From Candidatus Gastranaerophilaceae bacterium (GTDB lineage Bacteria; Cyanobacteriota; Vampirovibrionia; Gastranaerophilales; Gastranaerophilaceae): a stretch of DNA of 64,000 nt. Position numbers and translations under genes: made by a program. Numbering within the stretch: position 1 is the first letter of the stretch; the number at the start of each line of letters is the position of its first letter. Below the pieces are notes generated by a model that worked only from the letters and a program-made list of their open reading frames with translations, searched no databases and was not told the DNA's origin. Location: assembly GCA_045645765.1 (NCBI GenBank), contig JAZRJK010000014.1:10819-74818 (forward strand), read 5' to 3'. Shown here piece by piece: positions 37,179-56,323 of this stretch.

Positions 37179-37265
37179 AGAGGGGTGTCCGAGTGGTTTA
37201 TGGTGCGATCTTGGAAGGGTCGTGTGGGGGCAACTCCACCGTGAGTTCGAATCTCATCCCCTCTG
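37179..37265 (+). tRNA. tRNA-Ser(GGA), CCA not encoded
   Basis: Acceptor AGAGGGG/CCCCTCT plus G73; anticodon stem CGATC/GGTCG with loop TTGGAAG; long variable arm GTGGGG-GCAA-CTCCAC; T arm GTGAG-TTCGAAT-CTCAT. Confidence 0.92.
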
Positions 37266-37447
37266 TAGAGAAGGTTAGTGCTAAAGCAAAGTGCTAACCT
37301 TTTTTAATTTTAAACCCCGCCAACAGCGGGCTTTATGCCGATTACGAATACACTTTGAGCATATTCTTTAGAAAATTTTTCATAAAAATACGCCCTTTTT
37401 ATCAAAAGTCTCAAAAGACTTTTTTAAAGTGGCGTAACTTTTTACAG
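37258..37447. repeat. dispersed ~200-bp repeat, copy 0 (fused to the tRNA-Ser 3' end)
   Basis: 8 differences over about 186 nt versus the copy at 61175-61359 (manual alignment). Confidence 0.92.
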
Positions 37448-37511
37448 CACAAAATTAACTCAACATTTCTAATTATTGAGAACACTTTAAAAGATTAAAA
37501 TATAAAAATAT

Positions 37512-37682
37512 TTAATTTAATTTTACTAACCTTCTTTTTTTCTCTTGCAAAAGATATTTAATATCAGCTCTCATAATTGCATCTACAACTAAATCTGTCA
37601 TATTTATACCATAGCGTCTTATTTTATCTATCTTTTTTATTGCCTCATCACTGTAAGCTCTAACTACAAGTTCTCTATACAT
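37512..37682 (-). CDS. 56-aa ribbon-helix-helix-like protein (not in ORF track)
   Basis: MYRELVVRAYSDEAIKKIDKIRRYGINMTDLVVDAIMRADIKYLLQEKKRRLVKLN*; SD GGAGG; strand-helix-Gly-helix pattern. Confidence 0.65.
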   Translation of the reverse strand: MYRELVVRAYSDEAIKKIDKIRRYGINMTDLVVDAIMRADIKYLLQEKKRRLVKLN

Positions 37683-37751
37683 AAATACCTCCTTTTTAAG
37701 TATAAAAATTATATAGTATATAAATACTTTAATCCGACATTAAAACAAGAA

Positions 37752-37779
37752 AAAACGAGGTAGAAATCTACCCCGTTTT
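37752..37779 (-). terminator. terminator downstream of hup
   Basis: AAAACG-AGGTAGA-AA-TCTACC-CCGTTTT hairpin. Confidence 0.6.
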
Positions 37780-37794
37780 AATATTGTTCAAAAA

Positions 37795-38067
37795 CTATTT
37801 TACAAGTTCTTTAAACTTTTTGCCTGCTGAGAATGCTGGAACTGTTTTCGCAGCGATTTTTAATTCTTTTCCTGTTTGAGGGTTTCTTCCAACTCTAGCA
37901 GCTCTTCTTCTTGATTCAAATGTACCAAAACCAACAAGAGTTACTTTCTCACCTTTTTTAACCGCAGATTGAATAGTATCAATTGTAGCTGATAATACTT
38001 CAGATGCTTCTTTTTTTGTAACTTTTGCAACTTTTGAAATTTCTGTAACTAACTCTTCTCTGTTCAT
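37795..38067 (-). CDS. hup: histone-like DNA-binding protein HU
   Basis: GEKVTLVGFGTF...RVGRNPQTGKELKIAAKTVPAFSAGK. Confidence 0.96.
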   Translation of the reverse strand: MNREELVTEISKVAKVTKKEASEVLSATIDTIQSAVKKGEKVTLVGFGTFESRRRAARVGRNPQTGKELKIAAKTVPAFSAGKKFKELVK

Positions 38068-38085
38068 AATAATCTCCTTTTTTTA

Positions 38086-38550
38086 TTATTTAACTATTTT
38101 CGCAATTTCTGATGTGATATCTTCACCACCATACAATACAGTCGATTTTGCTAAAACAATATCATAGCCTTTTGCTTTTGCTTGTGCTGCTATTGTTGAA
38201 GAGATGCTTGCATCAATTGCAGCTAATTTTTTTGTATATTCTTTTGTATTGGCTTCTTTCTTTTTCGCTAAATCTTCATTATATTTTTTTAGTAATTTTT
38301 GTTTATTTGCTTCTGTCGATTGTTTTTTTACATCAGCATTTACGGTTTCCAACCATTTAGCCAAGTCTTGAGCTTTTTTTGCTTGTTCATCTTTTAATGC
38401 TTTTACTTGAGCTGACTTTGCAACGATTGCAGGTACATCTACAACGGCGATTTTTTGAGATGGCATATTAGACATAGCAAAATTACTTGAACCAAGAACC
38501 AAACCTAGAACTAAACAACCAATTGACATTACTTTTGAATCTATTTTCAT
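38086..38550 (-). CDS. skp: periplasmic chaperone Skp/OmpH
   Basis: Signal peptide; KIAVVDV; helical body; AKAKGYDIVL...VLYGGEDIT; start moved to ATG at 38550. Confidence 0.85.
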   Translation of the reverse strand: MKIDSKVMSIGCLVLGLVLGSSNFAMSNMPSQKIAVVDVPAIVAKSAQVKALKDEQAKKAQDLAKWLETVNADVKKQSTEANKQKLLKKYNEDLAKKKEANTKEYTKKLAAIDASISSTIAAQAKAKGYDIVLAKSTVLYGGEDITSEIAKIVK

Positions 38551-38568
38551 CTTTTTCCTTTCTTTCAC

Positions 38569-41500
38569 TTACAGTGAACTAACTTTTTTGTATTTTATAT
38601 TATCGTATGATATTTTATGGAAATATTTAATTTTACTGGTTTTAGATTTTGAATTATTAATAACATCAAATATATTAGATGGTGAAACATATTCATCTAC
38701 ATGATTTTTTATAATACCTTCTCCATATGATTTTTCAATATTTGTCTTATATGTTCCTTGGGTTGGAATTTTGTATAATAAAGCTTCTGTCTTTTCTATT
38801 GTTTTTTCTGAAACATTTGTATTTTTTATAGAAGTAGCAGATGATGAATTTATTGCACTATTCATACTATTATTGTTATTATCAGAATTTACTAAAATAT
38901 TACTGTTATGTCTTGTAACATTTACAGCCTCTGTAATTATATTATTATCACCATTAATTTTTATACTAGCCGGAAGTTGTGTTAAGTATAATTGCACATC
39001 TGCATTAATAATAGGTTTTAAACTTGTATTATCAATAATAACACGTTTATTTCCAGTTGTTAATGTTGCACTCTTTTCAACAATAAGATTATCTATTGAT
39101 AAATTATTTGATGAAGTTGTAATTTTTGCTTGTTCTACATTTATATTTTTAATATTTATATCATCATCTGTGTATATAGCAAAAGCTTTTGTTTCAATAT
39201 TTGAATAATTTGCACCTGTTCCATTTGTTGATAATGAAATTAGATTATCTGATACCATTGATAATTTGTTTCCATTTGTAAGCATAATATTTAGAGGATT
39301 ATCCAAAGTCCCTATAGTTTCGTTAGCTTTTAAAGTAATATCTTTTGCATACAAGTTATAATCATCGGTGTCTAATCCATTATAAATTGATTTTTCAGAT
39401 CTAATATCTAATGCTGTAGTATATGCATTTTTATTCCCTGAAATATTACCTATATTTAAGTCTTCAGAAGTGTATATATTGGCATTATCAACATTAGCAT
39501 TTATATTTCCTACTAACATAATTTCATCTATTTTTAAAGTATTAGCAATTGTATTTAGATATCCATAAATGCTTGCATCATTAATCGCAATAGAATCAAT
39601 AGCTGAAATTGAAGTATTACCACCAACAGTTAGTTTATTTGTAACTTCTGTATCTTTTGAATTATTTACAAGATTACCATCAACGGTTGCATTAGCGATT
39701 GTTGTTTTATCTGTAGTTGTGATATTTGCATCACCTGAAACAACCATATTAGCAATATTTGCAGTTGTTGAACTTGTTGTTAATGTATTCAATTCAGCAT
39801 TGTTAACAACTAGAGCCTCTGACTCGTTATTAAATATTCCTTCAATATTTGCATTATTTATATCTGTTGTATTTTGAGCTTGAATTAACGATTTATTTGC
39901 AACTATAGTTCCTGTTATATTAACATCTGAAGCACTTTTTGCAGTTAATTGATTACCAACTCTAACGTCTTGAATTGCAAGAGATGTATTACCCTCAGTA
40001 TTCAACAATAAATTGTTAGAAATTTCAGATGAAATAATATTTAAATCAGAACCTTGACCATTAATATAAGCATTGATGGCTTTTACGCTTAAGCCTTTAT
40101 TGATATCATTTGATACAGTATTAACATTAAGATATTTTATAGATGTACCAATATCTTTGTTAGAAGTTAATACAATATTATTTGCTTTAATATTAACTCT
40201 ATCATCATTTGCTGAATTTATTATATTTCCTTTTGCAAATAAAACTACCTCACCAAGTACACTATTGGTATTTACAAATTCAGTTGTTGAATCATAAGTA
40301 TTAACAGAGCGAATTTCGTTAATATTTAAATTATTATCAGTTGTCAAATAAACATTTTTGCCATTACCAGCAAAGACAGTTACATCTTTTAAAGCATCAA
40401 TCTTCAGTGCAGATGCTACTGTTCCAACATCTCCGTTAACAGCAGATAAAACAATCTGCGAACCTGTTAATGAAGAACTATTATTTGCATTCAAAATTGA
40501 TTTTTCAGAGTTAACAATAACGTTTCTTGAAGCTTTCACATTACCTAACTTCATATCTTTAAGACCGGCTGTATATGCATTAAGAGCTGCTTCTCTTTCT
40601 GAATCACTAGTTAAAGTTGCTAGATACTCTTGAGAAATTTCTTTTTTAGAGATTAAAGAAATCGAAATATCACTCATACCTGAAGCAATTCCATCGGTAT
40701 AACCTGCAATAGCATTAATTACTCCATCTGTATTTATTGCAATATTTTCAATATTCCCATGTTTAGTATTTAAATCAACTCCTGTTGCTGAGTAGATATT
40801 ATAAATTAGACTTTCAGAACTTGTCGCTGCAATAATACCATAATCAGCATCTAAATTAACTTTGCCATTCAAAGACTGAATGCTATCAGCATGTATTCTT
40901 CCAGCTGAATAGATATTAATATCGCCATTAGATATAACGTTATAAATACCATCACGTGCTACTTTTAATACATTATCTGAAGTCCCTACATAGCCATTTA
41001 AAGCCTTAATTACGACATTACCACCATTGATGTGATAAGGATTTAAAGTTTCGTTATCAGTGGCAATTATTGAGCCTGTTTTAGAACCTAAGGCAATATT
41101 ACCTTTTGAAGTAGAAACTATTGATGAAATATTTAAGTTGCCTTTGTTAATTAAAGCAATATCACCGTTTGCACGAGCTTTAAGCTTATTAACTTCAATA
41201 TTAATTTTATCATTCTTAGTACTATCAAGTTGAATAGATCCATTATCTGCTCTTAATTCCAAAGAATCAGCATTTATAGAAACCTCACCATCTAATCCAC
41301 CAAACTGCAAACCAGAAGTTGCCAAGTAAGCATTACCAGTAGCATCAACTATTATATTACTAATTTCTGAATTTGGATAATTAATATAAACATTCGCTGC
41401 TTTAACATTTAACATGCCTTCATTATATATTGCTGTTTGAATAGGCTTTAATTCAGAACCGATATCATTATTTGCCGACATGTTTATATTTTGTGCTGAA

Positions 41501-44500
41501 ATAATATTGTTAATACTATTAGTTGTAATGGAACCGTTACTTGAAGATAATCCAATGTTACCAGCTAAAGCACTAATACTATTATTCATGATGATAGAAC
41601 CGTTTGAATTTACATTAATTTGTGGTGTACTAAAGCCTTGGAATTGAACATTTACTGAATTTTGAGCAACGCCATATTCAGGTTTATGAGTTACTGTATA
41701 ATAAACGGTTCTATATAATTTACCATGCCATAATTCAGTCCACCAAGAACGTTTAACATATTCTGTATATGATTTTGTTTCTGTAGAACCGGCTTTTGTT
41801 ACATAATAAGCATCTGTACCAGGAGTATATGTTATAATATCAATATTTGCCCCATCAGCTCTGGTTATAGATGATGCAGAACCCCAAGTACCATTGCCTT
41901 CTGTTATTCCTTTTGTTGAAGTAACAATATTTCCTTGACTATCGACATTTGCAGTATAAGTACCGGTATTTTCTGACAACCAAGTCGCGTTTTCAATATC
42001 TTCTTGTTTTAAAGAGTCAAAAGCTTTACCACCTTTATCTGATTCTGAGAATTTAATATCGTTAATTGTTAATTTGCCAGCTATATTAGCATCAGCATTT
42101 AATGCACTAGTCACCAAATTGAAGTTAGAGTTATTTTGAACATCAATATGCCCATAGCCATTAACTAAAACGATTTTACCTTTGTTAGATGTACTTATAA
42201 TATTACCTGTCAGTGTTATATTTCCACCTTGTATTTCTGCTTTGAATAAATGAATATCACCTAAAATATTATTTACATTAGTTTCATCTGAAGGTTTAAA
42301 ATATGCTTTTATCATTTCTAAATCAGAATCAAGTTGACCATTACCAGATAAATTCAAATAATAGTAACCGTCACTTGCACCTTTTTGCATTGCGACCTTA
42401 GAATCACCAATTACTTGATAATACACACCATTTTCTTTAATAACTTTAAAGTCAGGAATTGTTACAGATTTTATTTCTGAGCCACTTTGAATAAGGCCAT
42501 TAATATCAATTATTTTTGAAGCAATATCAATATCACCGGAAGCAACAATTGCTCCATTTCCTGATGAACCACCTACTGTAACAGTATTATCACTATATGT
42601 TTGAGCATAACTACCATTAGGAACAGATATTTTCAAATCTTTTGCAGTTATAGAACCTTCAGATAAGATATTACCTGTATAATTAATGAATTTTACCAAA
42701 CCATTAACATTTTCAATGTTACCATTAAATACCATATCACCAAAACCATTTTTAACATTTAAGTCAATTGTTGGATCATTGGCATCAACAGTATTAAGGA
42801 TTGAAATACTGTATTCATTTGTACTATTTAAAATATTTTTTGTTATTGTTGAAGCAATATTTGAACCATGAATCAATCCTGAAATATTTCTACCAATTTG
42901 TATATCTTTATATACAATGTCACTAGAACTATTATTTACAATATCTACAGTAAACTTATTACCGGGAGCTGTTATTGTACCATTACCTTCAACTTTTCCG
43001 GTTAGAGTGGTATCACCTGAACGAACAATAATATTATCAATAAGCAAAGAATAAACAGGGATTGAAGAATTTTCTGCAAGTTCTTTTTGATTATCTAATT
43101 CCTGAATTATACTATTATAGTATTCTGTAATTTTTTCTTTTTCTGCATCAGCCTTAGCGATTTCATTTCTAGCTGCTAAAACATTTGCATTAGATGCGTT
43201 TATAGCATCGTTACATATACTTATAGAATTATTATTTTTAACAATTTCTTCATTTATTTCAGTAATAAATGAAACCAATTCAACGTTATTAGAACAATTA
43301 ACCTGAGTATTAATTGCATTTACTGTAGTTGCAAGAGTTGTATTTATTGAATTTAAATTGTTTATGCTATCTTCTTTTGTTGATTTTAAGTCCAACATAT
43401 CACTTATTGAGTTCTGAAGTGCTAATAAATTTGTACTTGATTTATTAGCAGAATATAGTTCCCAAGCAGACTGAATATTATCTATGCTGTTATTATCAGC
43501 ATATTCTTGTAATACCAATCCAAAACTTTCATCAATTGTAACAATATTATTAGATTTACTATATGCATTTTCCCAAGCTTCATTTACTGAATTTAATACA
43601 TTAACCTCTGCTTGAGTTTCTTTGATAGTATTATTATTTTCAATAATATTATTTGCAATATTAATTGCATTTGTATATTCTTGGTTTTTAGACTCATAAG
43701 CTGCTTTTTGCGTTTGAGCTTCTGTAGATGAGTTTTGAGCATTTCTTATTATTTCGTTTTCAATACTAATATAATCATCTATTTCAGCTAATTTGTTATT
43801 TTTAGTAAGCTCATACGCATCGATATCAGATTGAACATCACTCGCTGTGATTTCTCCAACCTGTTCTTTTCCAATTACATTAACACCATTTGAAGAATAA
43901 GAGCCGTCTTTATTTATAACTAAATTTCGATTAGCACCAAGACCACTTTCTAATTGTCCATTAAGCGTTATAAGCGCATTCGAATTATTTGTTTCAGTTT
44001 CATTACCCTCTCCGTAAATAGTAATAGGAATACCAAATACAATATAAGTTGTACCTTTAGCTGTTCTAGCAGCACTTAAGTCTGAAGTTGTATCCAATGC
44101 TGTAAGATTCATAGAGTCATATGCTTTCAAAATAGCATTATTCTCAACAATAATTTCTGAAATAGAATTGTTATATGCAACAGCCTTTGAGTTACCAACA
44201 GCTCCAATTAACCCATGTGTTGTTGCATACATATAGGCTTGAATATTTTTATCACAAACTGATTGAATATACGTATCCCTTCCGCTTATAGAGTTAACGC
44301 CTGACGAAATTATTACAGAAGATATGGCTTTATTATTTTCTGCGATACTAGAACCATCCGCAATTGCTATTCCACCATAAGATGATACATTCGATTTTGT
44401 ATAAATATCAATATCATTATCTGCTAAGAAATAAATATCATCATCTTTTGTTTTAATGTCTTTGTTCTTTATGTACGTTTTAGTTTTAACATCAGATATT

Positions 44501-47500
44501 ACTTGAACATTACCATCAGCTACGGGTACAGCACCTCCTGCAGTAACATCAACTTTTTCATTAACATTCAATATACTTTGAGAAGAAACATTAATGTAAC
44601 CATTATCAAATACTCCTAACGCATAGGCTTTATTTCCATCTAATGTTGCTATTGTTGACATTATAATATTATCAGTTAAATTAGCTGCACCAACACCAAC
44701 AACACCCCCTGCTCCACCATATAAGTCGTAATTTGATACACTATCTTTTTTAACAGTATTTGTTGCGAAAATTTCAATTGCTCCATTTGCGTTTATATCT
44801 GCATTAGATATTGCAGAAACAGCTGAATTAACAGTGTTAGCAATAATACCCGCAGTTACACCAACAGCACCATATGCGGAGGAATCATTATATGATTTAT
44901 AAATATTTGAAGTATTTGCTAAAATACTGTACGCACCATCTGTAGTATTAATGGAATAATTTTTACCAACAACAACATCGTTAGTTGATGATATATTAGT
45001 ATAAACTCCTGAACCACTTACACCTACAGCAGCCCCTGCTCCAGCTCTTGTTTGAGCATCAACATTATTTTCGACAGAAGAACTTATATCTACAAGTTTC
45101 GCTGAAATTAACTTGTTAGTATTTGCATCTGCAATATTGACTCCAGAAGTATTTCGGATAATACTATTAGTCATTGTGCCTCCGGCAGAAACTACTCCAT
45201 ATGCTCTACCATCAGTTTCTGCAATTGATGTATTTTTAGCAACAGAGGTAATTTTTGCAGCTAATTTAGCTAAAATGTTTGTATTTTTACCAATATTAAC
45301 AGTATTATTTTTACCAGTTTGAGCATTAGCTTCTGCACCAACTCCACCAAGAAGACTTCCGGATAAAGCATCAGCAATAGCTGTAGATTTTTCATCAGCA
45401 TTTGTTTTTATTGTCAAATTACCCTCTTTAGATAGTAAATCAACATTGTCATCGATATCAATTCGAGTGTTGCCTTTTATAATTGCATCCGCAACAGAAA
45501 CACCAACAGCTACGCCACCATGTGAATCACCATCAACAGTTGATGAAATAATACCTTTTGACAGCGCATTTAACAATAAATCAGAAGTAGCTTCCAAAAT
45601 AGATGACGATAAAATATAAGTATTTGCAGTTTTATTTGAATTAATTTTAGCTAATCCACCAGATCCTGATATAATACCACCTGATGCTGATTTTACGTTA
45701 ATATCTTGGTTATCAACAGACTCAGAGCTAATATTAATTCCACCTGTTGAATCAATTACAACATTATTTGAAATAAAAGCATTTGTTGTTGTATAAACAT
45801 TTGAAACTCCGGCAGAAACGCCAACAACTGCAGCTCCATATGTATTACCTGAAACTTTAATGTCAACATCATTTGTATTTTTTGCGTATAAAGATGTGTC
45901 CTTTGTATTAAGTTTAGCCCCGGAATCAACAAATGCTGAAGTTGTATTTAATCTGGCTGTAGAACCAAGACTAGAACCTGAATTTTCTGATTTAGTAAAT
46001 AAAGAGAATGTGCTTTCAGTATTTGTACCTGAATACTCTTTATAATTTTTATCTGCATTATTTAATTCATTAGCAGATGCTATTAAAACATTCTCAGCTT
46101 GTGTTTTTGCAGTTTCATAAACAGTTGCATCATCACCTGTTAAAGCATTTTCTTGGGCATTATCAACAACTTTTCCGATAGTATTATGAATAATACCACC
46201 ACTCAATGCTACTGAACCACCTCCAACAATTGATGCCGTGGCATCTATAATTTCATTACTATGAGCTTCTAATGTTAAATTGCCAGATGGCATATTTAAT
46301 ACAGAATCAACACCTATTAGGGTATTAACAGTATTATCTATATTATTTACTCCAACAGAAGCTCCAACTCCTGCAACCCCACCAATTGCAACTCCTCCGA
46401 CACTTTCATAAATATTAGTATCTGCTTGAGCTTTTAAGGTTAAATCGCCTGTAGAAATTATGTTATTCTTCTTGCCGATATAGGCATTCACATTATTTTC
46501 TACTGTATTAACTAAAACAGCACCTGTAGCAGCACCACCTGCTGCAGCTGTTCCTGCTGCTATGTATAATTTGTTATCTTTAGTCCCTAAATTTGTTATA
46601 GATGTTGCATTTATTTCAGATTTTGAAAGTTTTAAATTTACATTATTTTCCGTATAAGCTTCAACAGTATTAGTGATTTTATTTACACCAACTGAAGCCC
46701 CGCCTGCAACATACTGTGCTCCAGCACCTGCAACAACAGAACCTGTAATTGATGTAGAATCATTTGCCTCAATTTTTAAGTTTGATGCAGACTCAATGCT
46801 AGAATTTTCTTTTATATAAGATTTTACAGTTGCATCCACAATATTAGCTAAAGAAGAACCTCCGACACCTACTTGTCCTCCACCAAAGCCCATCGCTAGT
46901 AAATTATTAAAGTTTTGAATGCCTTGAGAATTTACCATAATATCATCAACTGTGATACTTTTTGTATCAGTAGAGCCAATATATGCCAATATTGTACTTG
47001 TAACTGAGTTTGTTGAAATAGTTGCACCAACTCCTGCAGTAGCCCCACCTGCTAGCGAACCCGCCATACCATTGAAATTAACAGTATCAAGGGCTTTAAC
47101 AGTTAATTTATCACCGGTAATATCACCTAATACATATGCTGTTATAGTATTATTTACAACATTGGTTTCAACAACACCTGCACCACCAGCATTTTTACCA
47201 CCAGCGCCAGATATTGCGTAAATATCATAAGTTGAATTTGCACTAGCAGTAACATCTAATATGTTAAAATCTTTCACTACAGATTGGTTAATAAATGAAG
47301 TTATATCATATCCAATAACATTCGTAGTAACAGTAACACCAACACCAACTACACCCGCACCTGCAACAGCACCAGAAATATCATCATAATTTGCAATTGC
47401 GTTTGTATTGATATTGATATTTTGGGCTGAAATAGTCGATTTATCTATACCAGACTTCATTTCGCTATTAACGACAGTTGTATTTACAACTCCTGAACCA

Positions 47501-50500
47501 GCAATTTCCCCAGCGCCTGAACCAGCTACAGCAGCAATTGTAATATTATCATTAGCACTTGTATTTAATTTAATGCTATCTGAAGTCAAACTAGAACCTT
47601 CTTGTATTAATGAATTAATATGTTTAGTAATTACTACTGTACTAATTGTTGCACCAGCTCCGACTTCGGCACTAGCACCTATAGCTCCTGCAAGTACTGT
47701 TAAATCTGTATTAGCAATTGAAAGCACATCAATATTTTTAAATTTAGAATTTTCAATATTATCGGTATTATCCAAATAAGCAGAAATCGTCTTATTAAAA
47801 ACAATTGTATCAACTGCACCACCAACACCTGCTTGATTACCAGCAGAACCTGCTATTGTACCACATTTAAATATATCATTTTGGGTTGATTGAACAATAA
47901 GATTTTCGAGAGAATTAGATGCGTCGTAGTTGTCAAATGTGGTGTCTTCAATAAATGCTTTGTTTTCGCCACCAAGAACAGCCGTCAATACAGAAGCTCC
48001 AAAAGCTAAATTTTCTGTTGAAATGCCAACAGCTCCAACCACATCTTTAGATTCAAAACTATCTTCAGTTTTTACACTTACATTTTTACCAGTTTTAACA
48101 ACTGATTTTTTAATATATGCATCCATGTCCTGCGATACAACAATCGTACTAATAGAACCTTCAGCGGAAGTTTCACCACCACCTGCCAAGCCAACAGCTA
48201 CAGTCTTCTGTTTTTGAGTAGATTTGGCCAATACATCAACACCTTTTTGACTTTCTACAGTCACTCCTTCGATGCCTGCACTTATATCTGCATCATTAAC
48301 ATAAGTATTTATAGCGGCACCAGCTGATGATTTGCTTGTAGATATAGCAACATTTCCTGTTGTAGCTAAGAAATCAATATCACTTTCAGACTTAACTGTT
48401 ATTTGCCCTCCGGCTTTTACTGTTTCATCACTAGAATTATTGCCATCACTAGAACTATTGTCATCGCTAGCACTATTGTTATCGTTAGAACTATTGTCAT
48501 CACTAGAACTATTGTCATCGTTAGAAGTATTGTTATCGCTGGAATTATTGTCATCTAAAATAAATGTGTATATATTTGAACTATTTACAATAGTATTTAT
48601 AGCACCTGAACCAGAAATGCCATTCCCTCCTGCGCCACCAAAAACAATAGAATATAAATCTTCATCAAAATTAGATGTTAAAATAATATCTTTAACAGTC
48701 GTAATATTTGAATTTTTAATATATGTATTTACATAATGTCCAATACCTACAGCATATGAAGATGCACCAATAGAGGTATTTTCTGGCCCTAGACTTGCTG
48801 CTATTGCTCCTGTAACTGCAACATTAAACATTGTTCTATCAGTATCTAAATTTAAACTGTTTGCAGTTACTGTAGAATTATTAATATAATTATTTTGATT
48901 GGAAACATTTGCTAAAACACTTATAACTCCAGAATACGCACCTTCTTTTGATGAACCAGCTCCTGCTACAGATATTGCAATTTGTTCAACATCTTCTTTA
49001 TTAATAACTGTAACATCACTAGTAGCTGTAATAGTTGAGGCATCTATATAACTATTAATTGTGTTATAAATAACATCTCCTCTTATTGAACCTCCAATGC
49101 CAGTTTTGTTGCCACCTGCAACAACACCATTTACCACTAATTCATAAAAATCGCTGCTAGCATCTAATGTTATAGTTCCTGCATTAATAGTAGAATTATT
49201 AATATATGTTTCAATAGTATTTACGGCAACATATGCTGCAATAGTTCCAGCAATAGCTTTTCCTTGTAATGCCGCAGCCCCTGCAACATCAATAACAATA
49301 AAATCAGATACATTTACTGCTTTAACATTTAGTTCTTTTGATGCTTTCACTCTAGAGTTATCGATAAAAGCTTTAATATCATTTTTTACAACATCCCCGT
49401 CTAATGTTGCTCCTACTGCTTTTGCTTTTTCAGAAGATGTTTCGGAACTATTTTGTATGGATACAGCGCCTACAGTTTTAACTTCTTTAGATTTATTTTC
49501 AGCGTTTAAGTTTATTATTTGAGTTGTAGAGACATTATCCGCATCTTGATTTATATTGGAATTTTTTATTGCTGATGTGATTTTGTTCACTTGAACAATA
49601 GAAGAAATATTTCCTGCACCTGCCACATCTTTAGCCGATGCAATACCTGAGGATGCCTGAACAATAGTTAAATCTTCTTTTGCATCAACTATAATATTGT
49701 TAGTAGCATTAATACTCGCATTTTCTACAACAGCAGAAACGTCGTTATTAAACACATCGGCTAAAATTGTTGCCCCAACTCCAGTTTTACCTTTCGCCGA
49801 CAAAACAAGCCCTATATCATAAACATTATCATCTGATTTGGCTTCTACAGAAACATTTCTGGCATTAACATTCGCTCCATCACTAATGGTTGCTTTTACA
49901 TCATTTGCAATACCTGTAAATGAAATAATCCCCGCCATTGCGGCGCTATCATCAACTGATGGTTGAGCGGCATCTATATTGATATTTTCTATATTTGCAG
50001 TTCTTTCTTGAATATCTTCTGGTAATTCTGGATTTAAAAAGAAATTTGCACACCAATTTTTAAATTTAGCCCATTTACTAGCAGTTGTTATTGTTTCTGC
50101 ATTTAAATCAGGAGAAGGCTCTTCCGGCTCAGAAGGAGTATTAGTACTATCATCAGGAGTTGTATCATTAGAATCTTTATCCTTAGCTAATCCTAAGTTT
50201 AAAATTGCATTAACAGCCAGCTTATCGTAAATAGCTTTTACTATAACATTTTCTTCAGCTTCTATTGTTCCGTTGATAAAAGAATTGACACTGTCAAGAA
50301 GTACAATTCCTGATAATGCTGCTCCATAAGCTTTATCACCTAATGTTATTGCGAGTATTGGATTTACATAGTTAGCATCTTTCACAGCTTTTACTGTAAC
50401 ATTGTTAGCTTGAATTTTTGTTTCTTCAGATGAAGTTCCAATACCCGCTTCTGTATTCCCGTTAACAATATTCATAGATATTGAACCACTACCACCTGTA

Positions 50501-53500
50501 GCATCCGCTGTAGCAGAGCCATGTGATGCTGTAACATAATTTCCATCAGAAAAAGAAGATACAAGGATATTTCCAATTTGAGAATCAGAAATTTCAGCAG
50601 CTTTAACGATATTTACATTATTACCTATTTTAGCATTTGTTTGTGAATCTGAGTATGAAATTGTTACAGCAGCACCATATCCACTACCATTTTTAGAACC
50701 AATTGCCCAAATCTGGTCTAAAATTAAAGTTAAAGGATTTAATAATGTCGCCATTGTCCATAGTTCATTATTAGATTTCGCTTCTATTGTTATATTAGCT
50801 AAATTTTTATCAATAATATTAGACACAACACTGGAATTATCTTCTAAGACAGCATTTGATGTCGTATTAAATACTTGAGCAGCAATCGCACCTGTATAAG
50901 ATGAAGTAGTAGAATTATTCTCTGAGCGTGCATCTGATGCTGATTGAGCATAAGTATTAAACAAATATTGCAATCCAAAATTATCTACATTCGCCGCAAC
51001 TTTCATCATTACATCTGAAGTTAGCAAATCCATAATACTTGTTTCTTCAGAAACTCCGGCTGTAGTTAAATAATTACTTACATTATTATCATCCAAACCT
51101 TCCCATTTGGATTGTACCTCTGCAGCCGATTGCTTGCCATCATTTTTAAAATATGTCTTACAATCATTAATAAAATCTTTCACATAATCATACCAAACAA
51201 GAGAATGCAACACTTCTGTATTAGATTTTATAGAAAGAGCACTAGGCTTATGTTCTGCATAATAAACCTTATCCAATTTTGTATAACCGGATTTATTTGT
51301 CAACTTATCATATTCTGTTTTTGTTATTATGTTACCGAGTGAATCAGAATAAAACTCCCCACTTGCTGTTGAAAAATTTGTCTTATATGCAGCATCAGTA
51401 GTATAGGCAATATCTCCTTCAAAAAAATTATATTTATAGATTTCAACATCTTTGCTTAACGCTTCATATAGCTTTTGTTCTCTTTCAGGTAACTTATCAT
51501 ATTCTGCTTTTGTTATTACATCATGAGAATTCTTTAATCTGTAATAAGCGCCTCCTTCAATATTGTCTGTTACAATATTGTTTGCCGTAGTGAAGTATAT
51601 CAAAGAAGCGACATTGTTTGACAATGTAAAATCACCGTACGCAGACGCTTTTGAATCTAAATTCTTCAAATTAAAAGCAAGAGCCCCACCTTTTCCACTT
51701 TCTGTACCTTCTGACAAAGAAATTGCAGAAATAGAACTTTTATCATCAATTAAATCTGCTTTTAAATTAATGCTACCTGCTTTTATTTTTGGTTTTATAC
51801 TAGATAGAGTATCTCCATTTCCTTGATTAACATGTCCAATTTTAGCATTAGAGTTAATATTTGACACTGCAACACTTATTGCACCAGCAACACCACTATC
51901 AGTTATGTTTGTAGAATCTATTAACCAATCAACTAATTTTACTCGTCTTAATAATTTTTGGGCTTTCCATCCCATAGTATCGTTTCCGCCACCGGAATAA
52001 GCATTTGAGTAAGAAATGATATTTCCTTTATAGTATGATTGAACATTCAAATCACCAGTTATATCAGCATCGGCAAGCATAATAGCTTCATTATCAATAT
52101 TAGTTACGATAATGTCGACAATAGCACCTAGTGAACTTCTATTTTTATCTACCAATGGAATTAAACCATTTTGTGCAGCATCAGTATGATAACTTAAAGT
52201 TGTTGCAATAATAGAAATATTATCGGATACGCCTTCTAAATTTACTCCGTTTTCTATTATCGCTTTATTAACAATTGTATTTATTGTAGTAGATATACCC
52301 ACATTTCCTATATCGGCACTACCCCCAAAAACTTTTTCCCAAGCGGCATTAAAACCCTGATTTAGCATAGCTGTAACTTTAGTTGAAGTATTCAAATTCA
52401 AGTTGGTTAATGCATCTACTTCAAGATTTTTTGCACTTATATTTGCTTCGCTTTTTACAATTGCTTGAGTTTTAGAATCTATTTGAGTGTAATTTAAAGC
52501 AAGTATTGGTGCAATTGTTGAAGAAGACAAAGTCATATCCGTTATAGCCATCAAATTAACATCATTTATTGCCGAAAGTATTGCATCTTTTTCTATAATT
52601 ACTTCAGTTATAGGTGTAACTTTAGATGTAACAAGATCAATAACTTGATCGACCCCTGGTATAAAACTTTCTGAAACGCTTACATTACCCATTTCATCTA
52701 ATTTAGTAACTGCTGTAGCATTAATATTAGAAGCATTTGTCTTTGAACTAGAATTAAATGTAACTCTTGAGATTGCTTCATGTGTGCCGGATGGCTTATG
52801 TACCTCCGTTTTCACATCGACATCCGCTCCGTTAGCATTAATATCGCCTTTTAAATTTACAATTGCACTCAATACATCATCGGTTGTTCCAGTATTGGAT
52901 GCAACAATAACAATATTTTTTCCGTCTTGCATTGCGAGATTTTTAGGATAATTAGCTGTAGAAAAACTCTGAGTTATTGTATTCGGAGTAGCTGTAACAA
53001 TACCATTAACTTCTGAAAATTTCATATTTGCATTGAGTTCAGAACCGCTATATAAATTAATCTCAGAACCGGAAATTAAGTCAATACCTGCACCTGAATT
53101 TATTTTACCTGATATATCTATTTTACCTGCGGCTAATTCTATTGGATTTTCAGCATTTCCATTAACTAAATAATTATTATCATTAAAAGTAAAGCCTATT
53201 AGGCTTTCAATATTTGATTCATTCCAAGTTTTAACATCACTAAATACGCTTGTATTTATAAGACTCTTCATTGAATCTTCAGTCGGTGTCATTAAAGTTA
53301 AAGAACCAACATTAAAAACACCATGCTCACCTATAACAAAGCCATTCGGATTTGCAAATAATACATTACCACCTATTTGTCCATTTAAGTAAGAATTTAC
53401 AACACCATTAATTTGTGATGCAGAATTATCAAAAATTAAATTAACTAATTTGTTTTGACCATTTACCAAATTTAAATTAACAATATCACCTTGATTAACA

Positions 53501-53721
53501 TTAAATCTGTTAAATGAATTTATACCGATTTGACCTGAACCAACAGTTGTATTTGTTTGAATATTTGTAATATTCCCATTTGTAAGTACACTTGTATCAG
53601 TAGGTAATGGCCCGCCAACAGAAATATCTGCAGCAAGTGCTGATATCAAAGATTGATTTACTAAAAATGCACAAATTAAACAAGATGCTATAATCTTTTT
53701 CATATATTCTCTTTTCATCAC
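38569..53721 (-). CDS. giant two-partner-secretion exoprotein (TpsA, filamentous haemagglutinin/leukotoxin LktA-like), 5050 aa
   Basis: Signal peptide from MKKII (53703); TPS domain INSFNRFNV...SQING...FANPNGFVIG; thousands of residues of G/A/S/N/T-rich beta-helix repeats. Confidence 0.9.
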   Translation of the reverse strand: MMKREYMKKIIASCLICAFLVNQSLISALAADISVGGPLPTDTSVLTNGNITNIQTNTTVGSGQIGINSFNRFNVNQGDIVNLNLVNGQNKLVNLIFDNSASQINGVVNSYLNGQIGGNVLFANPNGFVIGEHGVFNVGSLTLMTPTEDSMKSLINTSVFSDVKTWNESNIESLIGFTFNDNNYLVNGNAENPIELAAGKIDISGKINSGAGIDLISGSEINLYSGSELNANMKFSEVNGIVTATPNTITQSFSTANYPKNLAMQDGKNIVIVASNTGTTDDVLSAIVNLKGDINANGADVDVKTEVHKPSGTHEAISRVTFNSSSKTNASNINATAVTKLDEMGNVSVSESFIPGVDQVIDLVTSKVTPITEVIIEKDAILSAINDVNLMAITDMTLSSSTIAPILALNYTQIDSKTQAIVKSEANISAKNLEVDALTNLNLNTSTKVTAMLNQGFNAAWEKVFGGSADIGNVGISTTINTIVNKAIIENGVNLEGVSDNISIIATTLSYHTDAAQNGLIPLVDKNRSSLGAIVDIIVTNIDNEAIMLADADITGDLNVQSYYKGNIISYSNAYSGGGNDTMGWKAQKLLRRVKLVDWLIDSTNITDSGVAGAISVAVSNINSNAKIGHVNQGNGDTLSSIKPKIKAGSINLKADLIDDKSSISAISLSEGTESGKGGALAFNLKNLDSKASAYGDFTLSNNVASLIYFTTANNIVTDNIEGGAYYRLKNSHDVITKAEYDKLPEREQKLYEALSKDVEIYKYNFFEGDIAYTTDAAYKTNFSTASGEFYSDSLGNIITKTEYDKLTNKSGYTKLDKVYYAEHKPSALSIKSNTEVLHSLVWYDYVKDFINDCKTYFKNDGKQSAAEVQSKWEGLDDNNVSNYLTTAGVSEETSIMDLLTSDVMMKVAANVDNFGLQYLFNTYAQSASDARSENNSTTSSYTGAIAAQVFNTTSNAVLEDNSSVVSNIIDKNLANITIEAKSNNELWTMATLLNPLTLILDQIWAIGSKNGSGYGAAVTISYSDSQTNAKIGNNVNIVKAAEISDSQIGNILVSSFSDGNYVTASHGSATADATGGSGSISMNIVNGNTEAGIGTSSEETKIQANNVTVKAVKDANYVNPILAITLGDKAYGAALSGIVLLDSVNSFINGTIEAEENVIVKAIYDKLAVNAILNLGLAKDKDSNDTTPDDSTNTPSEPEEPSPDLNAETITTASKWAKFKNWCANFFLNPELPEDIQERTANIENINIDAAQPSVDDSAAMAGIISFTGIANDVKATISDGANVNARNVSVEAKSDDNVYDIGLVLSAKGKTGVGATILADVFNNDVSAVVENASINATNNIIVDAKEDLTIVQASSGIASAKDVAGAGNISSIVQVNKITSAIKNSNINQDADNVSTTQIINLNAENKSKEVKTVGAVSIQNSSETSSEKAKAVGATLDGDVVKNDIKAFIDNSRVKASKELNVKAVNVSDFIVIDVAGAAALQGKAIAGTIAAYVAVNTIETYINNSTINAGTITLDASSDFYELVVNGVVAGGNKTGIGGSIRGDVIYNTINSYIDASTITATSDVTVINKEDVEQIAISVAGAGSSKEGAYSGVISVLANVSNQNNYINNSTVTANSLNLDTDRTMFNVAVTGAIAASLGPENTSIGASSYAVGIGHYVNTYIKNSNITTVKDIILTSNFDEDLYSIVFGGAGGNGISGSGAINTIVNSSNIYTFILDDNNSSDNNTSNDDNSSSDDNSSNDNNSASDDNSSSDGNNSSDETVKAGGQITVKSESDIDFLATTGNVAISTSKSSAGAAINTYVNDADISAGIEGVTVESQKGVDVLAKSTQKQKTVAVGLAGGGETSAEGSISTIVVSQDMDAYIKKSVVKTGKNVSVKTEDSFESKDVVGAVGISTENLAFGASVLTAVLGGENKAFIEDTTFDNYDASNSLENLIVQSTQNDIFKCGTIAGSAGNQAGVGGAVDTIVFNKTISAYLDNTDNIENSKFKNIDVLSIANTDLTVLAGAIGASAEVGAGATISTVVITKHINSLIQEGSSLTSDSIKLNTSANDNITIAAVAGSGAGEIAGSGVVNTTVVNSEMKSGIDKSTISAQNININTNAIANYDDISGAVAGAGVVGVGVTVTTNVIGYDITSFINQSVVKDFNILDVTASANSTYDIYAISGAGGKNAGGAGVVETNVVNNTITAYVLGDITGDKLTVKALDTVNFNGMAGSLAGGATAGVGATISTNSVTSTILAYIGSTDTKSITVDDIMVNSQGIQNFNNLLAMGFGGGQVGVGGSSLANIVDATVKSYIKENSSIESASNLKIEANDSTSITGSVVAGAGAQYVAGGASVGVNKITNTVEAYTENNVNLKLSKSEINATSITNLGTKDNKLYIAAGTAAAGGAATGAVLVNTVENNVNAYIGKKNNIISTGDLTLKAQADTNIYESVGGVAIGGVAGVGASVGVNNIDNTVNTLIGVDSVLNMPSGNLTLEAHSNEIIDATASIVGGGSVALSGGIIHNTIGKVVDNAQENALTGDDATVYETAKTQAENVLIASANELNNADKNYKEYSGTNTESTFSLFTKSENSGSSLGSTARLNTTSAFVDSGAKLNTKDTSLYAKNTNDVDIKVSGNTYGAAVVGVSAGVSNVYTTTNAFISNNVVIDSTGGINISSESVDNQDINVKSASGGIISGSGGLAKINSNKTANTYILSSSILEATSDLLLNALSKGIISSTVDGDSHGGVAVGVSVADAIIKGNTRIDIDDNVDLLSKEGNLTIKTNADEKSTAIADALSGSLLGGVGAEANAQTGKNNTVNIGKNTNILAKLAAKITSVAKNTSIAETDGRAYGVVSAGGTMTNSIIRNTSGVNIADANTNKLISAKLVDISSSVENNVDAQTRAGAGAAVGVSGSGVYTNISSTNDVVVGKNYSINTTDGAYSILANTSNIYKSYNDSSAYGAVGVTAGIIANTVNSAVSAISNADINANGAIEIFATNTVKKDSVSNYDLYGGAGGVVGVGAANLTDNIIMSTIATLDGNKAYALGVFDNGYINVSSQSILNVNEKVDVTAGGAVPVADGNVQVISDVKTKTYIKNKDIKTKDDDIYFLADNDIDIYTKSNVSSYGGIAIADGSSIAENNKAISSVIISSGVNSISGRDTYIQSVCDKNIQAYMYATTHGLIGAVGNSKAVAYNNSISEIIVENNAILKAYDSMNLTALDTTSDLSAARTAKGTTYIVFGIPITIYGEGNETETNNSNALITLNGQLESGLGANRNLVINKDGSYSSNGVNVIGKEQVGEITASDVQSDIDAYELTKNNKLAEIDDYISIENEIIRNAQNSSTEAQTQKAAYESKNQEYTNAINIANNIIENNNTIKETQAEVNVLNSVNEAWENAYSKSNNIVTIDESFGLVLQEYADNNSIDNIQSAWELYSANKSSTNLLALQNSISDMLDLKSTKEDSINNLNSINTTLATTVNAINTQVNCSNNVELVSFITEINEEIVKNNNSISICNDAINASNANVLAARNEIAKADAEKEKITEYYNSIIQELDNQKELAENSSIPVYSLLIDNIIVRSGDTTLTGKVEGNGTITAPGNKFTVDIVNNSSSDIVYKDIQIGRNISGLIHGSNIASTITKNILNSTNEYSISILNTVDANDPTIDLNVKNGFGDMVFNGNIENVNGLVKFINYTGNILSEGSITAKDLKISVPNGSYAQTYSDNTVTVGGSSGNGAIVASGDIDIASKIIDINGLIQSGSEIKSVTIPDFKVIKENGVYYQVIGDSKVAMQKGASDGYYYLNLSGNGQLDSDLEMIKAYFKPSDETNVNNILGDIHLFKAEIQGGNITLTGNIISTSNKGKIVLVNGYGHIDVQNNSNFNLVTSALNADANIAGKLTINDIKFSESDKGGKAFDSLKQEDIENATWLSENTGTYTANVDSQGNIVTSTKGITEGNGTWGSASSITRADGANIDIITYTPGTDAYYVTKAGSTETKSYTEYVKRSWWTELWHGKLYRTVYYTVTHKPEYGVAQNSVNVQFQGFSTPQINVNSNGSIIMNNSISALAGNIGLSSSNGSITTNSINNIISAQNINMSANNDIGSELKPIQTAIYNEGMLNVKAANVYINYPNSEISNIIVDATGNAYLATSGLQFGGLDGEVSINADSLELRADNGSIQLDSTKNDKINIEVNKLKARANGDIALINKGNLNISSIVSTSKGNIALGSKTGSIIATDNETLNPYHINGGNVVIKALNGYVGTSDNVLKVARDGIYNVISNGDINIYSAGRIHADSIQSLNGKVNLDADYGIIAATSSESLIYNIYSATGVDLNTKHGNIENIAINTDGVINAIAGYTDGIASGMSDISISLISKKEISQEYLATLTSDSEREAALNAYTAGLKDMKLGNVKASRNVIVNSEKSILNANNSSSLTGSQIVLSAVNGDVGTVASALKIDALKDVTVFAGNGKNVYLTTDNNLNINEIRSVNTYDSTTEFVNTNSVLGEVVLFAKGNIINSANDDRVNIKANNIVLTSNKDIGTSIKYLNVNTVSNDINKGLSVKAINAYINGQGSDLNIISSEISNNLLLNTEGNTSLAIQDVRVGNQLTAKSASDVNITGTIVANKSLIQAQNTTDINNANIEGIFNNESEALVVNNAELNTLTTSSTTANIANMVVSGDANITTTDKTTIANATVDGNLVNNSKDTEVTNKLTVGGNTSISAIDSIAINDASIYGYLNTIANTLKIDEIMLVGNINANVDNANIYTSEDLNIGNISGNKNAYTTALDIRSEKSIYNGLDTDDYNLYAKDITLKANETIGTLDNPLNIMLTNGNKLSMVSDNLISLSTNGTGANYSNIETKAFAIYTDDDINIKNINVEQAKITTSSNNLSIDNLIVEKSATLTTGNKRVIIDNTSLKPIINADVQLYLTQLPASIKINGDNNIITEAVNVTRHNSNILVNSDNNNNSMNSAINSSSATSIKNTNVSEKTIEKTEALLYKIPTQGTYKTNIEKSYGEGIIKNHVDEYVSPSNIFDVINNSKSKTSKIKYFHKISYDNIKYKKVSSL
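48427..48552. repeat. 7 x 18-bp in-frame tandem repeat inside tpsA
   Basis: Units of ATC(A/G)(C/T)TAGAACTATTGTC-type sequence encode (D/N)DNSS(S/N) hexapeptides. Confidence 0.92.
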
Positions 53722-53894
53722 TTTTTTTATTACAATACTCCACCATTAATTATATCTAATAAAAATTACGAATAGTGTAATGTAACGAAAAATTAAGTTA
53801 TCTTAAAAGAGAGTTGTTACAATTCTTAATTATTTTCTCAAAGGTTTTATTTTTATGATATATCTTACTTAAAGTAATTAATTTAAGTGGAACT

Positions 53895-55721: not shown

Positions 55722-55727
55722 ATGTTT

Positions 55728-55838
55728 TTATTTAACAAACTCCCAATGGAAACCATAAGCTGTTCGATTTGGATTCTTGCAGGCGAACTTAATCCCTGAA
55801 TCTACTGAATAACTTGTAGTAACACCTTTTTCATGTAG
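55728..55838 (-). pseudogene. NUMOD1-domain C-terminal fragment
   Basis: Manual translation LHEKGVTTSYSVDSGIKFACKNPNRTAYGFHWEFVK*; in-frame TAG upstream and no start; IxxAC...TAYGFxW is the NUMOD1 tail. Confidence 0.6.
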
Positions 55839-56030
55839 CTATGTGTTTGTGAACCCTGAGACAATGAAACCTTATGTGGATATTAAGAAAGCGTGGGCTA
55901 CAGTTCTAAGCTCAGCTAAGATAGATAATTTTAGATTTCACGATTTAAGACACACTGCAATCACTAGGATGGAGGAAAAAGGAATACCTTTACTAGTAGT
56001 TCAAGAAATAGCAGGACATACAAAAATAGA
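55836..56030 (+). pseudogene. tyrosine recombinase catalytic-domain fragment
   Basis: YVFVNP...FRFHDLRHTAITRM...VVQEIAGHTKIE, then similarity breaks before the catalytic Tyr; N-terminus missing. Confidence 0.85.
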
Positions 56031-56191
56031 AAGGTTTTTATTCAAAACAAACATTAAATTGGTTAGAAAAAATATTAAAAGAAAATCCAAATAAACAATT
56101 TTTAATTTTTCAACATTTCCCACTGCTTGAACCAGTAAAAGACTCTGCGTATGTTCATAAGCATAGCACTCGAAAAAAAAGAAATTATGAA

Positions 56192-56323
56192 TTAAATAAA
56201 AGTGAAGATTTTAAGGTTATTGATTCTCCTATCACTATAACCGACGAAAATAATTTCTTCAGTTTTGAAATTGATAAATGTTTGAACATACTCCTTAAAT
56301 TGAAAAATGCTAAACTCTGCCAT
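56192..56323 (-). CDS. 43-aa ORF or frameshifted gene start
   Basis: MAEFSIFQFKEYVQTFINFKTEEIIFVGYSDRRINNLKIFTFI*; SD AAGGAG 8 nt upstream; shared upstream motif at 56357-56391. Confidence 0.35.
   Translation of the reverse strand: MAEFSIFQFKEYVQTFINFKTEEIIFVGYSDRRINNLKIFTFI

What the first reader, a model, noticed from the sequence alone, without database searches (positions are those of the whole stretch)
37179..37447. tRNA-Ser 3' end is fused to, and resembles, the start of the cassette repeat
The tRNA ends CTCAT-CCCCTCTG-TAGAGAAGG. Copies 1 and 2 read CTCAT-TTA-CCCCCTCTG-CAGAGAGCTACGAGCGGTTGGGACGCTG-TAGAGAAGG. The extra 28 bp lie between two CTG(C/T)AGAGA direct repeats. This looks like an att junction at a tRNA 3' end, a common tyrosine-integrase target. 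The tRNA also has an atypical A1-U72 pair.
Basis: partly seen in the sequence, partly recalled or inferred. Interest (0 to 1): 0.65.

Follow-up and report, generated by a model that had tools for sequence, protein, structure and literature searches.

The report
tRNA-Ser end anchors a gene-cassette stack
In this gut relative of cyanobacteria, the stretch just after a serine tRNA gene has been copied between a row of unrelated effector-like genes and marks where they are joined, so the tRNA end is the anchor of a small, reshuffling gene island: a variant of a known way in which such islands grow.

Summary
tRNA-Ser(GGA) lies at 37179-37265. From its last three bases (CTG) onward, about 185 nt (trailer, terminator hairpin, two more hairpins) recur four times at 58.1-63.2 kb between unrelated minus-strand genes. 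In 19 copies from 10 sources the left edge of the shared block is always CTG|TAGAGAAGG. To its left lies a full tRNA-Ser, a 29-39 nt tRNA-Ser 3' fragment, a 40-nt cassette "left arm", or the end of a mobile-element-like region.

Relatives show a bare site, a scar and occupied sites with arrays starting at the tRNA. One 2,058-nt contig closes one cassette plus one repeat on itself.

In this window, the 20 kb between the tRNA and the array looks like a later insertion.

The att reading is partly supported:
- The junction is a recombination junction anchored at the tRNA end.
- No intact integrase is linked to it, only a 75-aa fragment.
- The repeated block is mostly tRNA trailer, not tRNA.
- The "28 bp between 9-nt direct repeats" holds only for this genome's copies 1 and 2 (partly 4).

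RecA-type exchange between repeats is not excluded. An earlier follow-up on this genome's array (e1-5276524) reached a similar verdict. This is a new variant of tRNA-anchored island growth, of moderate interest.

The parts
37179..37265 (+). tRNA-Ser(GGA), the only copy in the genome, with an A1-U72 acceptor pair. Its last three bases (CTG, 37263-37265) are the left end of the shared block.
   Evidence: ARAGORN; sequence; the same acceptor stem in relatives.
37266..37331 (+). Core of the repeat at the tRNA: the trailer TAGAGAAGG, the terminator hairpin (37274-37297 plus a T run) and a second hairpin (37316-37330). This is the tRNA's native 3' flank.
   Evidence: Present after tRNA-Ser in G061 and G063. 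G067 has a variant with compensatory stem changes. The first 32 nt differ at 3 of 576 positions over 18 copies.
37332..37447 (+). Right arm of the repeat at the tRNA. It is not part of the native tRNA flank in G061, G063 or G067.
   Evidence: Alignments; 95% identical to the right arm of copy 3.
37448..57457 (.). About 20 kb that now separates the tRNA-linked repeat from cassette 1. It holds a 56-aa ORF, HU, an OmpH-like gene, a 5050-aa exoprotein with its ShlB-type transporter, an integrase fragment, a phosphoesterase fragment and a SHOCT gene. It is inferred to be a later insertion, bounded by AGCAC on both sides.
   Evidence: In metagenome contig L052 the same right arm runs straight into the 3' end of the cassette-1 gene. 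The transporter has only 27-30% relatives in four congeners. Pfam hits.
55816..56040 (+). Fragment of a tyrosine recombinase. It has the HDLRHT box and is cut off before the catalytic Tyr.
   Evidence: PF00589 hit of 42 bits; translation. Its best in-genome relative (44%) is a truncated integrase next to tRNA-Ser(UGA) on contig C78.
57467..58036 (-). Cassette 1 gene, 189 aa, with a weak DarT/ADP-ribosyltransferase-like N-terminus.
   Evidence: Pfam PF14487, E=4.5e-4, below the cut-off; PADLOC DarT, E=0.007.
58123..58341 (+). Repeat copy 1: left arm 58123-58170, core from 58171, right arm to about 58341. It is preceded by the generic leader at 58058-58120.
58387..59628 (-). Cassette 2 gene, 413 aa, no family match.
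59707..59923 (+). Repeat copy 2. Leader plus left arm plus core positions 1-7 are identical to copy 1 over 113 nt. The two diverge after core position 32.
60007..61077 (-). Cassette 3 gene, 356 aa, with an HExxH motif. It is conserved together with both flanking repeats in the G062 array (90.6% over 1683 nt), but next to a different neighbour gene there.
61130..61346 (+). Repeat copy 3. Its left arm is of the type found in other genomes and is not tRNA-like.
61744..62760 (-). Cassette 4 gene, 338 aa, no family match above cut-off.
62983..63199 (+). Repeat copy 4. It is separated from its leader (62776-62838) by an insert of about 140 nt (62843-62985). It is followed by 270 nt and then the stop of the pyruvate kinase gene (63466).

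Best explanation
The tRNA-linked copy is the proximal junction of a cassette island anchored at the 3' end of tRNA-Ser(GGA). The repeat (about 215 nt) has three parts: a 40-nt left arm, a 66-nt copy of the tRNA's own trailer, terminator and second hairpin, and a right arm of about 110 nt. Each unit is one effector-like gene with its own generic leader plus one repeat.

Shown:
- All copies share one sharp left edge, three bases inside the tRNA.
- The core derives from the native tRNA flank.
- Arrays in other genomes start at the tRNA.
- The same cassette sits beside different neighbours in two genomes.
- One cassette plus one hybrid repeat forms a closed path in a metagenome assembly.

Inferred:
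- Cassettes are inserted, lost and swapped by recombination inside the nearly invariant trailer/terminator segment. That segment has imperfect inverted arms around a 7-nt loop, the layout of a tyrosine-recombinase core site.
- The recombination is carried out by an integrase encoded elsewhere, of the kind whose remnants lie at 55.8 kb and next to tRNA-Ser(UGA).
- New units entering at the tRNA push older ones outward.
- The hairpins probably also insulate the independently transcribed genes.
- In this genome a 20-kb insertion later split the first repeat from cassette 1.
For: Sharp common junction with full tRNA, tRNA 3' fragment, cassette left arm and mobile-element-like end as left contexts.

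Site states in relatives:
- Native bare site in G063 and G067, the latter with compensatory changes in the terminator stem.
- Scar in L055.
- Occupied sites in G061 and G062.
- The core is foreign in genus g34, where homology with 16 congeners ends at the tRNA 3' end.
- In G061 the insert ends with leader plus left arm-CTG, followed by unrelated DNA.

L017 has a 141-nt terminal repeat equal to the assembler's k. Its repeat is a hybrid, and the switch falls between core positions 9 and 43.

The first 32 nt of the core are 99.5% invariant, whereas the arms differ by 6-25%.

The five copies lie in one locus only. The integrase fragment and its relative beside tRNA-Ser(UGA) are documented. Cassette 3 is shared with G062 beside different neighbours.
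Against: - There is no intact recombinase on the contig, next to the arrays of G061 or G062, or next to tRNA-Ser(GGA) in five relatives.
- The identity block (185 nt) is long for an att core. It is mosaic between copies, as gene conversion would make it.
- The right edge is fuzzy, with two subfamilies.
- The last copy in the window still has a right arm, so the distal end of the array is not a clean attR.
- G061 places the crossover at CTG, while L017 places it inside the hairpin.
- L017 could be a tandem duplication rather than a circle.
Confidence: 0.5

Rival explanations
1. There is no dedicated recombinase. The tRNA flank was duplicated once, and the array then grew and reshuffled by RecA-dependent unequal crossing-over and by replacement of incoming DNA between 200-nt repeats. 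The sharp left edge is inherited from the founder duplication.
For: No linked integrase. The repeats are long enough for homologous exchange. Variants along the right arm are mosaic. The L017 hybrid repeat is also what unequal crossing-over gives. Copies 1 and 2 share a 113-nt identical block, which looks like gene conversion.
Against: - Several unrelated left contexts meet the core at the same nucleotide, including a mobile-element-like end and a 3.5-kb insert in another genus.
- In G061 the left arm is followed by non-core DNA, which homologous exchange between repeats does not produce.
- The trailer/terminator segment is far more conserved than the arms.
Confidence: 0.28
2. The repeat is kept mainly for expression. 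It acts as a terminator/insulator module between independently transcribed genes, or as the template of a small RNA of about 80 nt that ends at the tRNA-type terminator. Its link to the tRNA is only one of origin.
For: The terminator stem uses G-U pairs that work only on the + strand, and it is kept in all array copies. The repeat holds three to four hairpins. Each gene has its own leader.
Against: - No conserved -10 element faces the core. The TTGACT/TTGCCT box is not followed by a usable hexamer in copies 1 to 3 (sequence).
- There is no Rfam match.
- Fold z-scores are only -1.8 to -1.9, and there is almost no covariation.
- This reading does not explain the shared junction or the closed contig.
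Confidence: 0.12
3. The cassettes move as single strands through a folded hairpin site, as with integron attC sites or IS200/IS605-type ends. The left-arm hairpin that spans the junction (stem CTAC.AGCG/CGCTGTAG, 7-nt loop) would be the recognition element.
For: The hairpin is predicted on both strands and crosses the junction. All units have one orientation. Insertion always follows CTG.
Against: There is no IntI-like gene near the arrays; no HUH transposase family was searched for. The repeat does not form one long attC-like hairpin. The hairpin is degenerate in L052 and in one G062 copy.
Confidence: 0.06
4. The repeat is a MITE or transposon footprint, with the 9-nt CTGYAGAGA repeats as a target-site duplication.
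For: The direct repeats in copies 1 and 2.
Against: All five copies lie in one locus. There are no terminal inverted repeats. The 9-nt repeat is absent from copy 3 and from relatives.
Confidence: 0.02

Closest known systems
tRNA-anchored genomic islands built by successive integrations, as described for the tycheposons of Prochlorococcus (10.1101/2020.12.28.424599, read)
   Same: - The island starts at the 3' end of a tRNA gene (tRNA-Ser among the targets there).
- Units stand in tandem, separated by a repeated att-like piece, and newer units push older ones outward.
- Fragmented integrases and partial tRNAs are scattered about.
- Tandem and circular junctions are seen.
- The cargo is flexible.
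   Different: - The repeated piece here is the tRNA trailer/terminator plus two arms, not a partial tRNA. It overlaps the tRNA by only 3 nt.
- The units are single genes of 1.4-1.9 kb with their own leader and without integration or replication modules.
- No intact integrase is linked.
Integrons (IntI, attI, attC cassettes)
   Same: A one-way stack of unrelated single-gene cassettes, each bounded by a repeat with a fixed junction. A possible circular cassette.
   Different: There is no IntI and no attC-type hairpin. Each cassette carries its own promoter-like leader. The anchor is a tRNA end, not attI.
rAID-1 clusters of Bacteroidales (10.1101/471110, read)
   Same: A gut bacterium with an array of orphan genes separated by repetitive intergenic sequences reminiscent of integrons.
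   Different: rAID-1 is defined by a conserved XerD-family recombinase at its head and by immunity-gene cargo. Here there is no such recombinase, the cargo looks effector-like, and the array is anchored on a tRNA.

Membership tests
Integrase-mediated integration at a tRNA gene (att sites, island accretion) | Inserted DNA is flanked by direct repeats that include the 3' part of the tRNA. | tested here: inconclusive
   In the window the repeat shares only CTG with the tRNA. In G062, L051 and L053 a 29-39 nt tRNA-Ser 3' fragment precedes the repeat.
Integrase-mediated integration at a tRNA gene (att sites, island accretion) | An integrase gene lies inside or next to the element. | tested here: not met
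   Only a 75-aa PF00589 fragment at 55816-56040. There is no PF00239 hit on the contig, and no integrase next to tRNA-Ser(GGA) in five relatives.
Integrase-mediated integration at a tRNA gene (att sites, island accretion) | Bare and occupied sites exist in related genomes, with the boundary at the att site. | tested here: met
   Bare sites in G063 and G067, a scar in L055, occupied sites in G000, G061 and G062. In genus g34 homology ends at the tRNA 3' end in 16 congeners.
Integrase-mediated integration at a tRNA gene (att sites, island accretion) | An excised circular form or tandem junction is found. | tested here: inconclusive
   L017 is closed on itself by a 141-nt terminal repeat equal to k. 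It could be a circle or a tandem copy. No reads were available.
Integron | An IntI-type tyrosine recombinase with attI at the head of the array. | tested here: not met
Integron | attC sites: one imperfect hairpin of 60-140 nt with paired R''/L'' and L'/R' boxes. | tested here: not met
   The repeat folds into a stack of short hairpins with z-scores near -1.9. No attC model was available, so this rests on folding only.
Integron | Mostly promoterless cassettes read from a common promoter. | tested here: not met
   Each cassette has the family-wide leader motif directly upstream.
MITE / transposon footprint | Many dispersed copies with terminal inverted repeats and target-site duplications. | tested here: not met
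   Five copies in one locus. The 9-nt repeat is not conserved.
rAID-1 | A conserved XerD-family recombinase gene at the start of the cluster. | tested here: not met
   definition from 10.1101/471110.
rAID-1 | Repetitive intergenic sequences between orphan genes. | tested here: met

The most novel reading that the evidence does not exclude
A self-contained cassette-capture system without IntI or attC. Single promoter-bearing effector genes would circularise and re-insert at the trailer/terminator of tRNA-Ser(GGA) through a 215-nt site that mimics the tRNA's 3' flank, driven by a recombinase acting in trans. This would be a second, independent invention of integron-like gene stacking, in Melainabacteria.
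Probability: 0.2. Interest if true: 0.75.

Novelty: new variant of a known kind. Interest (0 to 1): 0.48.

Why it matters
Gastranaerophilaceae are uncultured gut bacteria with few recognised mobile elements. This locus shows where and in what units they exchange effector-like genes. It also gives a short, nearly invariant 32-45 nt sequence (the tRNA-Ser trailer and terminator) that can serve as a probe for such islands in metagenomes.

If the exchange proves to be site-specific and to act in trans on single-gene units, the system would be a compact, integron-like capture mechanism built on a tRNA terminator. If it is plain homologous exchange, it is an ordinary variable island.

Tried and rejected
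- MITE reading: rejected on copy distribution.
- attC-like fold: not seen.
- Rfam: no family on the repeat. The tRNA itself scores best as tRNA-Sec, below threshold.
- Phage, plasmid and viral-contig searches with the repeat: no match.
- Family-wide BLAST with leader plus repeat: hit only the generic leader, in 104 of 401 genomes.
- Left-arm pattern: absent from 400 sampled family genomes other than G000.
- Search for the far end of the L050/L054 element: only a 100-nt piece was found, and no integrase.
- Search for a bare site matching G061's distal flank: nothing found.
- Homologues of the cassette-3 protein elsewhere: solitary genes in core contexts without the repeat.
- The HU gene of the 20-kb segment: many paralogues at contig ends in relatives, with no useful synteny.
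- Extra tRNA-Ser fragments in five relatives: none.
No read-level test of circles, empty sites or transcripts was therefore possible.

Full report
**What is there**

The window comes from a Gastranaerophilaceae (Melainabacteria) genome of 2.08 Mb and 31% G+C. ARAGORN finds one tRNA, tRNA-Ser(GGA), at 37179-37265 on the + strand. It is the only GGA isoacceptor in the genome. From its last three bases onward, 37263-37447 is repeated four times at 58123-58341, 59707-59923, 61130-61346 and 62983-63199, with 91-96% identity. There are no further copies in the genome.

I divide the repeat into three parts:
- a left arm of about 40-48 nt, found in array copies only;
- a core of about 66 nt, made of the trailer TAGAGAAGG, a terminator hairpin with a 7-nt loop and T run, and a second GC hairpin;
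- a right arm of about 110 nt with a third hairpin.

Each array copy is preceded by a leader of about 60 nt and followed by an unrelated minus-strand gene of 189, 413, 356 or 338 aa. The leader is a family-wide upstream motif, matched in 104 of 401 genomes and upstream of solitary homologues. It is therefore not part of the repeat proper.

The strings quoted are correct, and the 28-nt insert is far beyond chance. However, the tRNA-like look of the left arm (CCCCTCTG.AGAGA) is significant only in copies 1/2 (6 of 5000 shuffles) and copy 4 (54 of 5000). Copy 3 and the copies of a related genome read AACCCTCAGCAAAGAG and score at chance. The 9-nt direct repeats are thus a local feature, not a conserved duplication. 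A1-U72 is shared by all relatives' tRNA-Ser(GGA).

**Where the core comes from**

In G063, tRNA-Ser(GGA) is followed by the same trailer and terminator, then by a diverged version of the second hairpin and unrelated DNA. In G067 it is followed by a variant of the terminator with compensatory stem changes, then unrelated DNA. Other species of the genus have other terminators directly after ...CCCCTCTG. The core is therefore a copy of a native tRNA-Ser 3' flank.

The terminator stem uses G-U pairs that only work on the tRNA strand. Its first 32 nt differ at 3 of 576 positions over 18 copies from several genomes, whereas the arms differ by 6-25%.

**The junction**

I collected 19 copies from 10 sources: this genome, four species genomes and six metagenome contigs. 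In all of them the shared block begins at CTG|TAGAGAAGG. To the left stands one of four contexts:
- (a) the full tRNA (G000, G061, G063, L055);
- (b) a 29-39 nt 3' fragment of tRNA-Ser preceded by the upstream region of pyruvate kinase (G062, L051, L053);
- (c) the cassette left arm (G000 x4, G062 x2, L017, L052, L053);
- (d) the end of a region with HipBA, a ParB-methyltransferase and a DUF5681-like gene (L050, L054).

Context (d) shares a short AAC.CTCAGC box with (c), so the two may be distant relatives. The right edge is not sharp. It has two subfamilies and several truncations.

**Arrays in relatives start at the tRNA**

In G062 the order is as follows:
1. the gene upstream of the tRNA;
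2. an intact tRNA-Ser;
3. a foreign 300-nt flank with repeated AGTCTCC motifs;
4. pyruvate kinase;
5. a degenerate tRNA 3' fragment;
6. repeat, 503-aa gene, repeat, 356-aa gene, repeat.

This is what integration of a second element into the tRNA itself would give, displacing the tRNA's 3' end together with an array that already began there.

The 356-aa unit with both flanking repeats is 90.6% identical over 1683 nt to cassette 3 of the window, while the neighbouring genes differ.

In G061, which belongs to another genus, tRNA-Ser is followed by the core. Then come 3.5 kb with four genes, then leader plus left arm ending in CTG, and then unrelated DNA. Sixteen congeners of G061 lose homology exactly at the tRNA 3' end, and none has the core. 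The core therefore came in with the insert.

**Why the tRNA copy is 21 kb from the array here**

In contig L052 a right arm of the same subtype as the tRNA-linked copy runs straight into the 3' end of a homologue of cassette 1. Joining 37447 to 57458 restores that arrangement, and both ends of the intervening 20 kb carry AGCAC. That segment holds a two-partner secretion pair whose transporter has only 27-30% relatives in four congeners. It also holds a tyrosine-recombinase fragment and a phosphoesterase fragment. I infer a later insertion into the first unit. This is inference from one contig.

**Signs of movement**

L017 is a 2,058-nt k141 contig binned with an unrelated MAG. It has an exact 141-nt terminal direct repeat. 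It consists of one unit (the 503-aa gene) plus one repeat closed on itself, and is 99.95% identical to the G062 array. Its repeat is a hybrid. Leader, left arm and the first part of the core match the distal G062 copy (G at core position 9). From position 43 on it matches the proximal copy. The only mismatch in 1953 nt is that position 9.

The contig is either an excised circle or a tandem duplicate. In both cases the exchange fell inside the trailer/terminator segment. Copies 1 and 2 of the window likewise share a 113-nt identical block and diverge strongly only after core position 32.

**Recombinases**

The genome has nine PF00589 and three PF00239 hits. On this contig there is only the 75-aa fragment at 55816-56040. 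Its best in-genome relative (44%) is a truncated integrase lying 140 nt beyond the terminator of tRNA-Ser(UGA) on C78. Integrases of this kind therefore do sit at serine tRNA genes here. None lies next to tRNA-Ser(GGA) in five relatives or at the arrays of G061 and G062. A further 24-nt tRNA-Ser 3' fragment lies on C52.

**Reading**

The junction is a real recombination junction anchored at the tRNA 3' end, and the array is a tRNA-anchored island made of single-gene units. This matches the accretion model described for tycheposons: successive integrations, older units pushed outward, fragmented integrases and partial tRNAs (10.1101/2020.12.28.424599). It differs from that model in three ways. 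The repeated piece is trailer/terminator rather than partial tRNA. The units are single genes with their own leader. No integrase is linked.

It is not an integron: there is no IntI, no attC-like fold and the cassettes are not promoterless. It is not an rAID-1 cluster, because there is no XerD-type gene at its head (10.1101/471110).

Whether the exchange is site-specific or RecA-driven stays open. The common junction, the G061 insert and the extreme conservation of the 32-nt segment favour a site-specific enzyme. The long mosaic repeats and the lack of a linked recombinase favour homologous exchange.

An earlier follow-up on the array of this same genome (e1-5276524) reached a similar verdict and pointed me to tycheposons. 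I checked that comparison against the paper and my own loci.

Noticed in passing
window 58058-58120, 59642-59704, 61076-61138, 62776-62838: The leader of about 60 nt upstream of each cassette gene is a family-wide motif. It matched in 104 of 401 Gastranaerophilaceae genomes and has about 40 copies in this genome. Its 20-nt centre also precedes solitary homologues of cassette 3 in other genomes.
   Followed up: partly
window 37448-57457: A 20-kb segment bounded by AGCAC on both sides carries HU, an OmpH-like gene, a 5050-aa exoprotein and its ShlB-type transporter. The transporter has only 27-30% relatives in four congeners, so the segment looks like an island inserted into the first cassette unit.
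   Followed up: partly
G000 contig C78:13940-14465 (locus L129 1248-1842): tRNA-Ser(UGA) is followed, 140 nt after its terminator, by a truncated tyrosine integrase (145 aa, catalytic Tyr present) reading towards the tRNA. This is a second decayed integration at a serine tRNA.
   Followed up: partly
G000 contig C52: about 990-1015: An isolated 24-nt copy of the T-loop and acceptor 3' strand of tRNA-Ser(GGA), not followed by the repeat core. It may be an old att scar.
   Followed up: no
L044 10680-10972 (G062): The foreign flank after the intact tRNA-Ser carries five copies of an AGTCTCC(G) motif. Similar motifs follow tRNA-Ser in G468 and G019 and occur in the ends of L050/L054. They could be arm-type binding sites of the element that split the tRNA from its 3' fragment. 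The pyruvate kinase gene lies between the tRNA and its displaced fragment.
   Followed up: no
L054 1148-2546 and 3361-5194; L050 865-2974: The region abutting the repeat core carries HipBA, a ParB-domain DNA methyltransferase and a DUF5681-like protein. It looks like the end of a phage-like or integrative element. Its other end was not found.
   Followed up: partly
window 62843-62985: An insert of about 140 nt sits between the leader and the left arm of copy 4. It has a GGAGAGG/CCTCTCC hairpin at its end and no other full copy in the genome.
   Followed up: partly
window 56030-56130 and 65057-65890 (beyond the array): A phosphoesterase (Metallophos) fragment lies beside the integrase fragment. 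An intact Metallophos gene follows pyruvate kinase. Its 89%-identical homologue lies about 0.6 kb beyond the distal end of the G061 array, separated from it by a 110-aa ORF.
   Followed up: no
window 37179-37264: In the permissive (E-value threshold) Rfam scan, which keeps only the best match per clan, the tRNA is listed as tRNA-Sec at 30.5 bits, below that family's 47-bit threshold. The general tRNA model scored lower. The tRNA is class II with A1-U72.
   Followed up: no
relatives G462, G469: contig ends: Paralogues of the HU gene at 37795-38067 lie at several contig ends in related genomes, as if HU were part of a repeated element there.
   Followed up: no
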